Shown: one piece after another, positions 6,001 through 9,000 of the stretch
Layout: every line of letters begins with the position of its first letter
Numbering within the stretch: position 1 is the stretch's first letter
Assembly (NCBI RefSeq): GCF_055900595.2
Contig: NZ_CM148325.1
Length of the DNA stretch: 64,000 bases
Strand: one strand, 5' to 3'
Position numbers: made by a program

Positions 6001-9000
6001 ACCTGAACGCGATTTGAATCAATATCAGCCAGTTAAGAACAACTAGAATAGTGGCATTTGGCATGCAACTTAACGGACTGGCAAAATCATGGCAGAGAAA
6101 AGAAGAACCCGCTGGCAGCGGCGGCCAGGCACGACGGGCGGCAAATTACCGTGGAATGACTGGCGCAATGCCACGACCTGGCGTAAAGCGACGCAATTAT
6201 TACTGTTGGCAATTAATATTTATATTGCCATCACGTTCTGGTATTGGGTGCGCTATTACGAAACGGCAGGTAGTACGACATTTGTCGCCAGGCCAGGAGG
6301 CATCGAAGGCTGGCTACCGATTGCCGGTCTGATGAATCTGAAATATAGCCTTGCAACAGGCCAGTTACCGTCCGTCCACGCCGCCGCGATGCTGTTATTG
6401 GTCGCTTTTATCGTCATCAGTCTATTACTAAAAAAGGCCTTTTGTTCATGGTTATGCCCGGTTGGTACGCTTTCTGAATTCATCGGCGATCTCGGTAACA
6501 AACTGTTTGGTCGGCAATTTGTCCTTCCCCGCTGTCTGGATATTCCTCTGCGCGGCGTGAAGTATTTGCTGTTGAGTTTTTTTCTCTATATCGCGTTATT
6601 GATGCCCGCTCAGGCTATTCACTATTTTATGTTGTCGCCCTACAGCGTGGTGATGGACGTTAAAATGCTCGATTTCTTTCGTCATATGGGGACCGCGACA
6701 TTAATCAGCGTGACCGTTTTGCTGATTGTCAGTCTGTTTATTCGCCATGCCTGGTGTCGTTATCTTTGCCCATATGGCGCGCTGATGGGCGTGGTTTCGC
6801 TATTGTCGCCGTTTAAGATTCGTCGCAATGCCGAAAGTTGTATCGACTGTGGCAAATGCGCAAAAAATTGCCCATCGCGGATCCCGGTCGATAAATTAAT
6901 TCAGGTACGAACCGTGGAATGTACCGGTTGTATGACTTGCGTAGAGTCATGTCCGGTAGCCTCAACATTGACCTTTTCACTGCAAAAACCTGCGGCAAAT
7001 AAAAAAGCCTTTGCGTTGTCTGGCTGGTTAATGACGCTACTGGTTCTGGGGATTATGTTTGCGGTGATTGGTTACGCAATGTATGCGGGAGTATGGCAAA
7101 GCCCGGTGCCGGAGGAATTGTACCGACGCTTAATTCCGCAAGCGCCAATGATTGGTCACTAAATTAGCAACAAGCGGAACATCACCTCGCACGGGGTGAT
7201 GTTCACAAAATCACATTATTTTGATTTTGACATCATAGCTTTCAAGCCCGGTCATTTTTTCTCGTGCGGTGAAGCGAATTTCAGAGACTTCTTTCCCTGT
7301 ATTCTTGTTCAGCTCGGCGATTTTTTGCGCGATAAAGTCAGCGATTTCCGTTTCGGCTTGTTTTTTTAACTCTTCAATATTCACTGTTAACCTCTTCTGG
7401 TCTTAAAAGACAGCAACACGCCAGTAAGGTGTTGGTTCCCGGTCCCCTGGTCAGGTAAGAAATGTTATAAGCCATCTCCCCGAAAGATTCAATAATCAAC
7501 AGGTTATCGCTTACTATACATACAGCGTTGAAGAAAAATAAGGCAGATATAAAAAAGGCTCCACGAGGGAGCCTGATCTTATTTTGTGAAATCCAGCGGC
7601 GCATGGTCAGTGCGTATTTGCAGCGCGACGTTATCAAAGGTGATCATCGTCGATTTACAAAAAATACACTTTGCCCCTAAAGGATTTCGCTCCGTCACAT
7701 CGAATGCCGATGTGCGGTACTGTGAACCATGACAACATGGACAGCGGAAATGGAGATGTTGAGTAATAACGGCAACCTTAGAGCGTAACAACGTTCGCTG
7801 CCGCGGGACCACGTTGCCCCTGCTCAATAGAAAATTCAACTTTCTGATTTTCGTTCAGCGTGCGGAATTCATTGCTCTGGATGGCAGTGAAATGGACGAA
7901 AACGTCTTTGCTGCCATCATCAGGAGTGATAAAGCCAAAACCTTTATCTGCGTTAAACCATTTTACTAAACCAGTCATTTTATTAGACATATTTTACTTC
8001 CTTCATTTTGGGCCTTTCGGCAAACAGGGCTTTAATACAGAAACTACTTAGTGTTCAGGAGAGAGACTCAAAAGAAGGGGATAATGCCTGATAATGAGAA
8101 CTGCTTTAGTAAACTACTTTGTATGCTGTCTGTCTTTCAAACCGACGCAGCTATTAACGCATGATAATTGAGATTAAGCAAATTTTATTTTAGCCGTCCG
8201 GCGGTCTTAAATATCGCTGGCTTTATTTTATTAACCCCGTATAGTGCAGCGCAGTATTTTCAGTAAGGAATTTGTTTGTCCCGTAAAATGACAGGAATTG
8301 TCAAAACCTTTGATCGCAAAAGCGGCAAAGGATTCATTATCCCCTCCGACGGTCGTAAAGAAGTCCAGGTCCATATTTCCGCATTCACTCCCCGCGATGC
8401 AGAAGTGCTTATACCAGGATTACGCGTGGAATTTTGCCGCGTAAATGGCCTGCGTGGACCAACAGCGGCAAATGTTTATCTCTCTTAATATGACGCTGCT
8501 TGTTTAAAACTGACTGGTTTTATTGGAATAGATTAATAGTCAACACTACACATTATAACGCAAGTTACTTTTTCATCAAGAAACTAATACATTTGACCGA
8601 ATATCTCTGTACCTAATAGTTATAAACGCCACTTAACAGCCGGTTATAGTACCATTTGAAACTATATTACCAACAATAGTTAATAGCTTTCTCAACAATT
8701 TTCTTATCTTTAATTTATATTTTTCTAAGATTTATCTTATGCCCACGAGTCGTATTTCCAGAGGGAAATCGTTAACAATCCTATATTTCCCTCTGCGCGC
8801 CTTTCCTACCCGCAGTATATAGTGCAAGCGGTATGAGGAAAGGGAGATTTCACAAGGATGTTATACTCAAAGTAGATAATTCTGATCTCAAGCGTACGTA
8901 TTGTCCATGCGATGAATAAAGGAAAAGTTATGAAACACAAGTTTTCTGCAATCCTTATGGCCTTCATGTTGACGACGCCAGCTGCGTTTGCTGCACCAGA

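What the first reader, a model, noticed from the sequence alone, without database searches (positions are those of the whole stretch)
6089..7162. yccM: conserved orphan polyferredoxin next to the tor locus
YccM has several TM helices and two C-terminal 4Fe-4S ferredoxin motifs (CIDCGKCAKNCP, CTGCMTCVESCP), resembling NapH/MauN-type membrane quinol dehydrogenase components, but to my knowledge has no assigned function. Its position immediately beside torS and its conservation make it a candidate redox partner worth functional testing, though not a new system.
Basis: partly seen in the sequence, partly recalled or inferred. Interest (0 to 1): 0.3.

Follow-up and report, generated by a model that had tools for sequence, protein, structure and literature searches.

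The report
yccM: nitric-oxide-regulated membrane iron-sulfur protein
This is the known but still uncharacterised E. coli gene yccM, a membrane iron-sulfur protein whose regulation and relatives tie it to nitric-oxide and nitrite stress rather than to the TMAO-respiration genes beside it.

Summary
Window 6089-7162 (+) is yccM, 357 aa, with five predicted membrane helices, two CX3CP motifs and two 4Fe-4S ferredoxin motifs. It is present in 5416 of 5426 complete E. coli genomes.

YccM is a NapH-like polyferredoxin with no function found in the papers searched. It is not NapH, CcoG or NosR: every curated model scores far below its cut-off.

The link to torS does not hold.
- The adjacency was seen only in the Escherichia loci examined.
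- There is no TorR box near yccM.
- The 71-bp gap holds yccM's own promoter elements and the published NsrR (nitric-oxide-sensing repressor) operator at 6049-6071.

NsrR-like sites recur upstream of yccM orthologues in at least eight genera with unrelated neighbours (24 of 29 loci against 0.5% of control windows). Relatives in Acidobacteria sit beside Hcp, qNor, the YtfE-type repair protein and a Crp/Fnr regulator. A relative at 44% identity heads an operon with nrfH-nrfA. Published Desulfovibrio work places a membrane polyferredoxin in the nitrosative-stress HcpR regulon.

Best reading: a membrane electron-transfer module, possibly quinone-linked, serving NO or nitrite detoxification. The partner is unknown. 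It is a known gene of moderate interest and a cheap candidate for E. coli's unidentified membrane NO-consuming activity.

The parts
6089..7162 (+). yccM coding sequence (357 aa; the end coordinate includes the stop codon)
   Evidence: ORF. RefSeq annotation 'yccM: 4Fe-4S binding protein'. Pfam 2x Fer4_5 plus a dicluster ferredoxin domain.
6049..6071 (+). NsrR operator, an 11-1-11 inverted repeat (TAGTGGCATTTGGCATGCAACTT), ending 17 nt before the ATG
   Evidence: Unique match in the window. The same site, with one base different, lies under an NsrR ChIP-seq peak in strain CFT073, and yccM was also a ChIP-chip target in K-12 (PMC5320621). It scores 15.8 bits with a matrix built from 16 other published sites. 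24 of 29 orthologue upstream regions reach 12 bits, against 0.5% of 1703 control windows.
6044..6049 (+). Inferred -10 hexamer TAGAAT of yccM's own promoter, abutting the NsrR operator
   Evidence: T, A.., A, T are invariant in an alignment of Escherichia, Citrobacter and Providencia upstream regions whose upstream genes differ. Inferred from sequence; no transcription start was mapped here.
6009..6023 (+). Conserved upstream box GCGATTTGAATCAAT. It resembles an FNR site (8 of 10 to TTGAT-N4-ATCAA), and its centre lies about 41 nt upstream of the inferred transcription start.
   Evidence: GAT..AAATCAA is invariant across three genera. It matches 9 of 10 in E. albertii, C. sedlakii and five Providencia loci, 71-76 nt from the ATG. 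The binding factor is unassigned: yccM was absent from all of that paper's held supplementary tables except S12, so it was not reported as an FNR ChIP peak, predicted site or fnr-dependent operon (PMC3688515).
6443..6460 (+). First CX3CP motif (CSWLCP, residues 119-124), at the cytoplasmic end of TM2
   Evidence: C119 and C123 are invariant in all 85 family members. Lies in the first Fer4_5 match.
6755..6772 (+). Second CX3CP motif (CRYLCP, residues 223-228), at the cytoplasmic end of TM4
   Evidence: C223, R224, C227 and P228 are invariant in all 85 family members.
6839..6955 (+). Cytoplasmic 2x[4Fe-4S] ferredoxin domain, holding CIDCGKCAKNCP (6839-6874) and CTGCMTCVESCP (6920-6955)
7013..7159 (+). 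Fifth TM helix (residues 309-332) and the periplasmic C-terminal tail carrying the conserved W336 and terminal GH motif. This region is absent from NapH.
   Evidence: Hydropathy and topology. W336 is kept in 83 of 85 and H357 in 69 of 76 members with a residue there. The NapH alignment ends at residue 288.
7177..7204 (.). 12-bp G+C-rich hairpin between the convergent yccM and gnsA genes, probably a two-way terminator
   Evidence: Minimum free energy -21.8 kcal/mol, z -6.25 against shuffles, and 0 of 200 shuffles fold as well. The simple terminator scan did not flag it.

Best explanation
yccM encodes a 5-TM inner-membrane polyferredoxin of the NapH/NosR/CcoG superfamily. It forms its own conserved subfamily. 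It is transcribed from its own promoter in the torS-yccM gap, and that promoter is bound by the NO-sensing repressor NsrR.

**Shown here or in cited papers**
- The gene, its motifs and its predicted topology.
- The NsrR operator, its conservation across genera, and published in-vivo NsrR binding.
- Recurrent linkage of family members to NO- and nitrite-handling genes.

**Inferred working model**
1. The membrane core exchanges electrons with the quinone pool, as is believed for NapH.
2. Electrons pass through the four invariant CX3CP cysteines at the cytoplasmic membrane face.
3. They continue through two [4Fe-4S] clusters in the cytoplasmic ferredoxin domain.
4. They reach a partner involved in nitrosative stress. 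The likeliest partners are the NO reductase Hcp or the di-iron repair protein YtfE/RIC.

The enzyme would then be made when NO inactivates NsrR. The position next to torS is an accident of genome arrangement seen only in the Escherichia loci examined.
For: **Regulation**
- The NsrR 11-1-11 site at 6049-6071 is unique in the window.
- It lies under a CFT073 ChIP-seq peak, and yccM was also a K-12 ChIP-chip target (PMC5320621).
- NsrR-like sites of at least 12 bits occur within 200 nt upstream in 24 of 29 orthologues from Escherichia, Citrobacter, Providencia, Pectobacterium, Budvicia, Limnobaculum, Pragia and others. Only 0.5% of 1703 control windows reach that score.
- The -10 element next to the operator is conserved even though the upstream genes differ.

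**Independent gene-context links**
- 15 of 54 non-enterobacterial loci, all Acidobacteria, have a Crp/Fnr regulator, a ScdA_N-hemerythrin (RIC/YtfE-type) protein or a hemerythrin nearby. They occur in several different arrangements.
- Three loci each also carry Hcp or qNor NorB.
- A RIC gene abuts yccM in one Providencia genome (L027).
- P0125, at 44% identity and with all family signature residues, overlaps nrfH and precedes nrfA.

**Literature**
- A Desulfuromonas gene labelled 'yccM polyferredoxin' has a candidate HcpR site (PMC545781).

**Expression**
- yccM is about 2.9-fold higher anaerobically, similar to hcp-hcr (PMC3688515 Table S12).

**Architecture**
- All 12 Cys are conserved across 85 members at 28-97% identity (11 invariant, C288 in 84 of 85), and all lie on the cytoplasmic side.
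- The AlphaFold model is confident (pLDDT 95, pTM 0.91).
Against: - In the CFT073 study, yccM was not among the 19 NsrR-bound genes that changed more than 1.5-fold with nitrate-derived NO. Binding is shown, but an NO response is not.
- No biochemical datum exists for YccM. Quinone interaction, the number of clusters and the direction of electron flow are all inferred from the family.
- E. coli Hcp already has a dedicated reductase, Hcr.
- Context evidence is absent in most sampled loci: 39 of 54 non-enterobacterial loci, the Burkholderiales MAGs and several distant members.
- The acidobacterial loci are phylogenetically related, so they are not independent observations.
- Orthology of the Desulfovibrio and Desulfuromonas polyferredoxins to YccM was not checked here.
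- Published knockout phenotypes are not NO-specific: heat sensitivity (PMC5828445) and hypersensitivity to blue light, with sensitivity to four single stressors in a follow-up study.
- In Entomohabitans and Serratia the matrix finds no convincing site.
Confidence: 0.5

Rival explanations
1. One reading: YccM is a redox partner or accessory of the neighbouring Tor (TMAO respiration) system, co-expressed with torS.
For: - Same strand, 71 bp downstream of torS, with no predicted terminator between them.
- yccM, torS and torT show similar anaerobic increases of about 2-3-fold (PMC3688515 Table S12).
- The adjacency is kept in E. coli, E. albertii and E. whittamii.
Against: - The adjacency is absent in Citrobacter, Providencia, Pragia and the other orthologue loci examined.
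- In C. amalonaticus, cbpA-cbpM and yccM lie about 4 kb apart with no tor genes between them.
- TorR boxes occur only at 1416-1478.
- yccM has its own conserved -10 element and NsrR operator.
- From general knowledge, the TorCAD pathway already has its quinol dehydrogenase, TorC.
Confidence: 0.05
2. YccM is a CcoG-type cupric reductase. It would bind Cu at the cysteine motifs and reduce Cu(II) to Cu(I) in the cytoplasm through its two [4Fe-4S] clusters.
For: - A copper-homeostasis review names YccM as a CcoG homologue lacking the periplasmic Ig-like domain. It describes CcoG as having two [4Fe-4S] clusters and two Cu sites (PMC7558416).
- YccM shares the Fer4_5 and ferredoxin architecture and, like CcoG, has a fifth TM helix (the CcoG topology is from memory).
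Against: - The CcoG model scores 30.8 bits against a cut-off of 316.7. That is well below the scores for NapH (92.7) and NosR (79.8).
- No copper-related gene was seen in any neighbourhood examined.
- The regulatory and context links point to NO and nitrite, not copper.
Confidence: 0.12
3. YccM passes electrons outward, or serves a periplasmic enzyme, as NapH does for NapG. Its family-specific periplasmic face would support a periplasmic nitrite or NO reductase of the Nrf type.
For: - P0125 forms an overlapping operon with nrfH and nrfA.
- The periplasm-side residues R68, P69, P77, H97, D190, M193, W336 and the tail GH motif are conserved across 85 members. Of these, H97 and D190 were checked against NapH and are not shared.
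- nrfA is itself NsrR-regulated in E. coli (PMC5320621).
Against: - Only one such operon was seen among the loci sampled.
- No cofactor-binding motif spans the membrane, so outward electron transfer has no evident path.
- From general knowledge, E. coli Nrf uses NrfBCD.
- All the metal-binding Cys lie on the cytoplasmic side.
Confidence: 0.15
4. YccM is itself the catalyst or sink for NO. It would be the unidentified membrane-associated, NO-inducible anaerobic NO-consuming activity of E. coli.
For: - Mehta et al. found this activity in membranes of a hmp, nrfA, norVW triple mutant. It needs no added reductant.
- They excluded 26 genes or operons, and yccM is not on that list (PMC5320621).
- YccM is a membrane Fe-S protein with an NsrR-bound promoter.
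Against: - The activity was not constitutive in an nsrR mutant, whereas in an fnr mutant it was.
- yccM was not nitrate-responsive in the same study.
- No known NO reductase uses this fold.
Confidence: 0.1

Closest known systems
NapH (E. coli b2204), membrane subunit of the NapGH quinol dehydrogenase; the NapH/MauN family
   Same: - Two Fer4_5 repeats, each ending in CX3CP, followed by a C-terminal cytoplasmic 2x[4Fe-4S] domain.
- 30% identity over YccM residues 81-288.
- Best-scoring NCBIfam models.
- YccM probably works in the same way, linking the quinone pool to cytoplasm-facing Fe-S clusters.
   Different: - Scores are far below the family cut-offs (92.7 against 234; 88.4 against 213).
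- YccM has an extra fifth TM helix and a conserved periplasmic tail.
- H97 and D190, two of its conserved periplasm-side residues, are not shared with NapH; the others were not compared.
- There is no napG or nap operon partner. E. coli keeps a separate napH in napFDAGHBC.
- YccM is controlled by NsrR.
CcoG/FixG/RdxA, the cupric reductase of cbb3 oxidase assembly (Marckmann et al. 2019, as summarised in PMC7558416)
   Same: - A membrane polyferredoxin with cysteine motifs and two [4Fe-4S] clusters.
- A review explicitly names YccM as a homologue.
   Different: - The model scores 30.8 bits against a cut-off of 316.7.
- There is no C-terminal Ig-like domain.
- There is no ccoGHIS or copper context.
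- E. coli has no cbb3 oxidase.
NosR/NirI, the membrane flavo-Fe-S protein needed for N2O or nitrite reductase function
   Same: - The NosR C-terminal half (model positions 481-661) matches YccM residues 101-284 (79.8 bits).
- Both are linked to nitrogen-oxide metabolism.
   Different: - The cut-off is 1000 bits.
- YccM lacks the N-terminal periplasmic flavin-binding domain and the extra TM helices.
- YccM is not in a nos or nir cluster.
The 'membrane-bound polyferredoxin' of the HcpR nitrosative-stress regulon in Desulfovibrio and Desulfuromonas (PMC4534486; PMC545781)
   Same: - A membrane polyferredoxin co-regulated with hcp and induced by GSNO.
- One is labelled yccM in the 2004 reconstruction.
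- This parallels the NsrR control and the Hcp/RIC neighbourhoods found here.
   Different: - The regulator differs: HcpR of the Crp/Fnr family rather than NsrR of the Rrf2 family.

Membership tests
Fer4_5-type membrane polyferredoxins (PF12801; the NapH/NosR/CcoG superfamily) | Two Fer4_5 repeats scoring above Pfam's gathering score | tested here: met
   PF12801 scores 80.3 bits against a cut-off of 22, with two matched stretches.
Fer4_5-type membrane polyferredoxins (PF12801; the NapH/NosR/CcoG superfamily) | Two CX3CP motifs and two CX2CX2CX3CP motifs, all on the cytoplasmic side | tested here: met
   Motifs lie at residues 119, 223, 251 and 278. The positive-inside rule places them in the cytoplasm. 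The Cys are conserved across 85 members, 11 invariant and C288 in 84 of 85. Topology is predicted, not measured.
NapH (NF007013 equivalog; TIGR02163 NapH/MauN subfamily) | HMM score at or above the curated cut-off | tested here: not met
   92.7 bits against 234, and 88.4 against 213.05.
NapH (NF007013 equivalog; TIGR02163 NapH/MauN subfamily) | Encoded with napG in a nap or mau cluster | tested here: not met
   The neighbours are torS and gnsA. The true napH lies in napFDAGHBC elsewhere in K-12.
NapH (NF007013 equivalog; TIGR02163 NapH/MauN subfamily) | Quinol dehydrogenase activity | not testable with these tools
   This needs biochemistry.
CcoG/FixG/RdxA (TIGR02745) | HMM score at or above the curated cut-off | tested here: not met
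   30.8 bits against 316.7.
CcoG/FixG/RdxA (TIGR02745) | C-terminal periplasmic Ig-like domain | tested here: not met
   Pfam finds no domain after residue 306. The tail is 25 residues long. The review states that YccM lacks the domain.
CcoG/FixG/RdxA (TIGR02745) | Specific Cu(II) reductase activity | not testable with these tools
   This needs anaerobic purification and an activity assay.
NosR (NF046105) | HMM score at or above the cut-off, and an N-terminal periplasmic flavin-binding domain | tested here: not met
   79.8 bits against 1000. Only model positions 481-661 are matched.
NsrR regulon of Enterobacterales | An 11-1-11 NsrR operator in the promoter | tested here: met
   The site is at 6049-6071. 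It scores 15.8 bits and is conserved in 24 of 29 orthologues, against 0.5% of control windows.
NsrR regulon of Enterobacterales | NsrR occupancy in vivo | not testable with these tools
   Taken from the literature: ChIP-seq in CFT073 and ChIP-chip in K-12 (PMC5320621).
NsrR regulon of Enterobacterales | De-repression by NO or in an nsrR mutant | tested here: inconclusive
   yccM is not among the 19 bound genes that changed more than 1.5-fold with nitrate (PMC5320621). The Filenko 2007 array paper could not be read.
TorR regulon / Tor system | Tor boxes (CTGTTCATAT) in the promoter | tested here: not met
   Boxes occur only at 1416-1478, with none at 5900-6100.
TorR regulon / Tor system | Conserved linkage to tor genes | tested here: not met
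   Linkage was seen only in Escherichia among the loci examined.

The most novel reading that the evidence does not exclude
YccM, with its wider family, is the missing membrane-bound anaerobic NO-consuming activity of E. coli. It would be a haem-free NO reductase or NO sink built on Fe-S clusters and cysteines, and fed from the quinone pool. This would explain why the family keeps turning up in NsrR, HcpR and Crp/Fnr nitrosative-stress gene sets across phyla.
Probability: 0.1. Interest if true: 0.75.

Novelty: already known. Interest (0 to 1): 0.33.

Why it matters
yccM is one of the conserved E. coli genes that still lacks a function. The superfamily it belongs to (NapH, NosR, CcoG) has no solved membrane-domain structure findable by sequence or fold search.

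Tying the YccM subfamily to NO and nitrite stress narrows the experiments from 'some redox role' to a few cheap tests.
- Is it the unidentified membrane NO-scavenging activity reported in 2015?
- Is it an alternative electron source for Hcp or YtfE?
- Is it simply NsrR-bound but idle?

Any positive answer would add a component to bacterial defence against host-derived NO. The finding itself is not a new system.

Tried and rejected
- **afdb50 fold search.** This library was unavailable, so structural ranking against NapH, CcoG and NosR models could not be done.
- **First AlphaFold run.** The 22-sequence run was poor (pLDDT 60) and was replaced by the 85-sequence run.
- **FNR as the factor for the conserved upstream box.** The sequence and position fit. 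However, yccM appears in none of the held supplementary tables of Myers 2013 except S12, so it was not reported as an FNR ChIP peak, a predicted site or an fnr-dependent operon. The factor is left unassigned. In the Citrobacter freundii group the same box scores as an NsrR site.
- **FNR/Dnr-type boxes upstream of acidobacterial homologues.** No enrichment: 6 of 54 loci against a 9% background.
- **Burkholderiales MAG neighbourhoods.** Uninformative, although weak NsrR-like palindromes lie just upstream in three of four.
- **Papers not held.** Filenko 2007 (NsrR arrays) and Marckmann 2019 (CcoG) could not be read. Statements about them rest on the citing papers or on memory.
- **'Sulfur relay / tRNA modification' label.** The thermotolerance paper gives this label without any supporting experiment, so it was not adopted.
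- **Pasteurellaceae 'yccM'.** The gene appears beside napC in that paper's table of co-upregulated genes, so I took it, without checking, to be a mis-named NapH and disregarded it.
- **Literature search for 'b0992'.** Only unrelated hits.
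Full report
**1. Observation**

The window holds an ATG-initiated ORF at 6089-7162 (+) of 357 aa.

Hydropathy gives five hydrophobic helices: about residues 37-57, 97-114, 157-176, 203-221 and 309-332. The K+R counts of the loops are 10, 2, 6, 2, 12 and 2. That pattern gives an N-in, C-out topology, with every Cys motif on the cytoplasmic side and a 25-residue periplasmic tail.

Pfam finds two Fer4_5 repeats (80.3 bits against a cut-off of 22) and a dicluster ferredoxin domain. The stretch matches 5416 of 5426 complete E. coli genomes and is annotated 'yccM: 4Fe-4S binding protein'. Its neighbours are torS upstream and gnsA, ymcE and cspG downstream.

**2. Which family it belongs to**

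The best curated matches all fall far below their cut-offs:

| Model | Score (bits) | Cut-off (bits) |
|---|---|---|
| NapH | 92.7 | 234 |
| NapH/MauN | 88.4 | 213 |
| NosR C-terminal half | 79.8 | 1000 |
| CcoG | 30.8 | 316.7 |

E. coli's own NapH (b2204, in napFDAGHBC) aligns at 30% identity over YccM residues 81-288 only. The shared core is therefore loop helix, TM2, CX3CP, TM3, TM4, CX3CP and ferredoxin domain. YccM adds a fifth helix and a tail.

An exhaustive HMMER search finds 327 cluster representatives at E up to 1e-30. A genome scan finds close relatives in many Enterobacterales, in Burkholderiales MAGs and in many Acidobacteria, at about 50% identity over residues 32-357.

In an alignment of 85 members at 28-97% identity, 11 of the 12 Cys are invariant and C288 is kept in 84 of 85. 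So are, or nearly so, R68, P69, P77, H97, D190, M193, W336 and a terminal G-H(-P) motif. All of these lie on the periplasmic side in the predicted topology. H97 and D190 are not shared with NapH.

YccM is thus a distinct, well-conserved subfamily of the Fer4_5 membrane polyferredoxins. It is not a NapH, CcoG or NosR orthologue.

**3. The tor neighbourhood**

That adjacency is not conserved.

- In Citrobacter amalonaticus, Providencia alcalifaciens, Pragia fontium and another enterobacterial contig, yccM stands alone among unrelated genes.
- In C. amalonaticus, cbpA-cbpM and yccM lie about 4 kb apart with no tor genes between them. Either the tor block entered in Escherichia or it was lost elsewhere.
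- The TorR box CTGTTCATAT occurs three times at 1416-1478, in the torC-torR region, and nowhere near yccM.

Two points remain in favour of some co-expression. No terminator is predicted between torS and yccM. And yccM, torS and torT show similar aerobic/anaerobic ratios (0.34, 0.44 and 0.36) in Myers et al. 2013, Table S12. In that table cyo and sdh have high values and hya, dms and nar have low ones, so low values mean anaerobic induction.

**4. Regulation**

The 71-bp torS-yccM gap contains TAGTGGCATTTGGCATGCAACTT at 6049-6071. This sequence is unique in the window.

Mehta et al. 2015 list the same site, with one base different, as an 11-1-11 NsrR site under a ChIP-seq peak in strain CFT073. 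They also note that yccM was a ChIP-chip target in K-12 (PMC5320621).

I built a position matrix from their 16 other sites. The window site scores 15.8 bits. Within 200 nt upstream of 29 orthologues, 24 reach at least 12 bits, against 0.5% of 1703 control windows from the same loci (Mann-Whitney P about 1e-18). The orthologues are related to one another, so that P value overstates independence. They do span at least eight genera with different upstream genes. Entomohabitans and Serratia lack a convincing site.

An alignment of Escherichia, Citrobacter and Providencia upstream regions shows two further invariant blocks.

- A -10-like TAGAAT lies at 6044-6049, abutting the operator.
- A box GAT..AAATCAAT lies at 6011-6023. 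It reads as an FNR-like site (8 of 10 in E. coli; 9 of 10 in E. albertii, C. sedlakii and five Providencia loci). Its centre is about 41 nt upstream of the transcription start inferred from the -10 element.

That is the layout of a class II activated promoter with a repressor over the -10 element and start site. I do not assign the box to FNR. Among the held supplementary tables of Myers et al., yccM appears only in Table S12, so it was not reported as an FNR ChIP peak, a predicted site or an fnr-dependent operon. In the Citrobacter freundii group the same box scores as a good NsrR site.

There is an important caveat. yccM was not among the 19 NsrR-bound genes that changed more than 1.5-fold with nitrate-derived NO in CFT073. 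NsrR binding is established; an NO response is not.

**5. Independent links to NO and nitrite metabolism**

I called ORFs in 86 loci and clustered the neighbours.

- No neighbour is universal.
- 15 of 54 non-enterobacterial loci, all Acidobacteria, have a Crp/Fnr-family regulator (13 loci), a ScdA_N-hemerythrin protein of the YtfE/RIC type (10 loci), or a hemerythrin (6 loci). A radical-SAM protein of family TIGR04053 is present in 7 loci.
- The RIC-type protein scores 201 bits on TIGR03652, just under its cut-off of 204.7.
- Three loci each also carry Hcp (Prismane, 529 bits) or a qNor-type NorB.
- The gene order differs between loci, which argues for repeated association rather than one inherited block.
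- A RIC gene also abuts yccM in one Providencia genome (L027).
- Among seven distant family members sampled, P0125 (44% identity, all signature residues) overlaps nrfH and precedes nrfA. P0152 lies near a rubredoxin gene. The rest were short contigs or uninformative.

The literature adds a further lineage. [quoted passage not shown] Rodionov et al. 2004 list a Desulfuromonas gene labelled 'yccM polyferredoxin' with a candidate HcpR site (PMC545781). I could not verify the orthology of those genes.

**6. Mechanism**

*Shown:* the gene, its motifs, its predicted topology, the NsrR operator and its conservation, published in-vivo NsrR binding, and the recurrent NO and nitrite context.

*Inferred by analogy with NapH, NosR and CcoG (my own knowledge, plus PMC7558416 for CcoG):* the membrane core exchanges electrons with the quinone pool. 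Electrons then pass through the four CX3CP cysteines and the two [4Fe-4S] clusters to or from a partner.

Because the clusters face the cytoplasm, and because Hcp and RIC are the recurring companions, I favour electron delivery to a cytoplasmic NO-handling protein. From memory, NapH in Wolinella similarly tethers and serves the cytoplasmic Fe-S protein NapF. The conserved periplasmic face and the nrfHA operon keep an outward-facing role alive as a rival.

The CcoG-type cupric reductase idea (PMC7558416) is possible. It has the weakest sequence support and no support from gene context.

**7. An open question this touches**

Mehta et al. described a membrane-associated, NO-inducible anaerobic NO-consuming activity in a hmp, nrfA, norVW triple mutant. 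It needs no added reductant. They excluded 26 genes or operons, and yccM is not on that list. YccM is an obvious untested candidate. Against it, the activity was not constitutive in an nsrR mutant but was in an fnr mutant. I put this at about 10%.

**8. Published phenotypes**

- The Keio yccM deletion is heat-sensitive at the critical high temperature, and a plasmid copy complements it (PMC5828445). That paper's 'sulfur relay' label has no experiment behind it.
- The deletion is hypersensitive to antimicrobial blue light, and a follow-up study found it sensitive to four single stressors (PMC10782963, PMC11673782).
- These phenotypes fit a redox or Fe-S role but are not specific.

**9. Verdict**

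The feature is real and already known as an uncharacterised gene. The proposed Tor connection is not supported and is better replaced by a nitrosative-stress connection. Novelty is low and interest is moderate-low (0.33). That interest rests on a short list of decisive knockout and reporter experiments.

Noticed in passing
window 60872-60881 (-): A perfect TorR box (CTGTTCATAT) lies far from the tor locus. About 0.1 perfect matches are expected by chance in 64 kb. It appears to sit inside coding sequence, and the region was not colinear with the reference strain I checked.
   Followed up: partly
window 7724-8146 (-): Rfam matches the cspA-type thermoregulator (160.9 bits) over the cspG leader and gene, just downstream of yccM. 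cspH lies divergent at 8276-8488.
   Followed up: no
window 58296-58374 (-), 53772-53845 (-), 26967-27051 (+): Rfam also finds naRNA4 (a nucleoid-associated non-coding RNA), a PyrD leader and a tRNA elsewhere in the window.
   Followed up: no
window 6089-7162, opposite strand: A 2026 paper on TadA RNA editing reports an editing event in an antisense transcript named 'yccM-as' (PMC13170351). I did not locate this transcript in the window.
   Followed up: no
window 3066-6017 (+): The mechanical ORF for torS starts at a TTG at 3066 (983 aa). RefSeq starts torS at the position equivalent to window 3273. The longer ORF overlaps the end of torT (2162-3190, -).
   Followed up: partly
L001 830-2055 and 6001-7080 (Citrobacter amalonaticus): cbpA-cbpM and yccM lie about 4 kb apart with no tor genes between them. 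The tor block therefore looks like a lineage-specific insertion in Escherichia, or a loss in Citrobacter.
   Followed up: partly
L059 9453-10790 (+) and homologues in L056, L057, L071, L084: A polytopic membrane protein of about 445 aa recurs in the acidobacterial NO-gene clusters next to RIC. It has no Pfam or NCBIfam match. It reminded me of NnrS, but that was not confirmed.
   Followed up: partly
one search hits P0062, P0082, P0097, P0117: Truncated YccM variants at 95-98% identity (201-269 aa) are represented by tens to hundreds of member sequences. Either some E. coli-like strains carry disrupted yccM, or these are products of fragmented assemblies.
   Followed up: no
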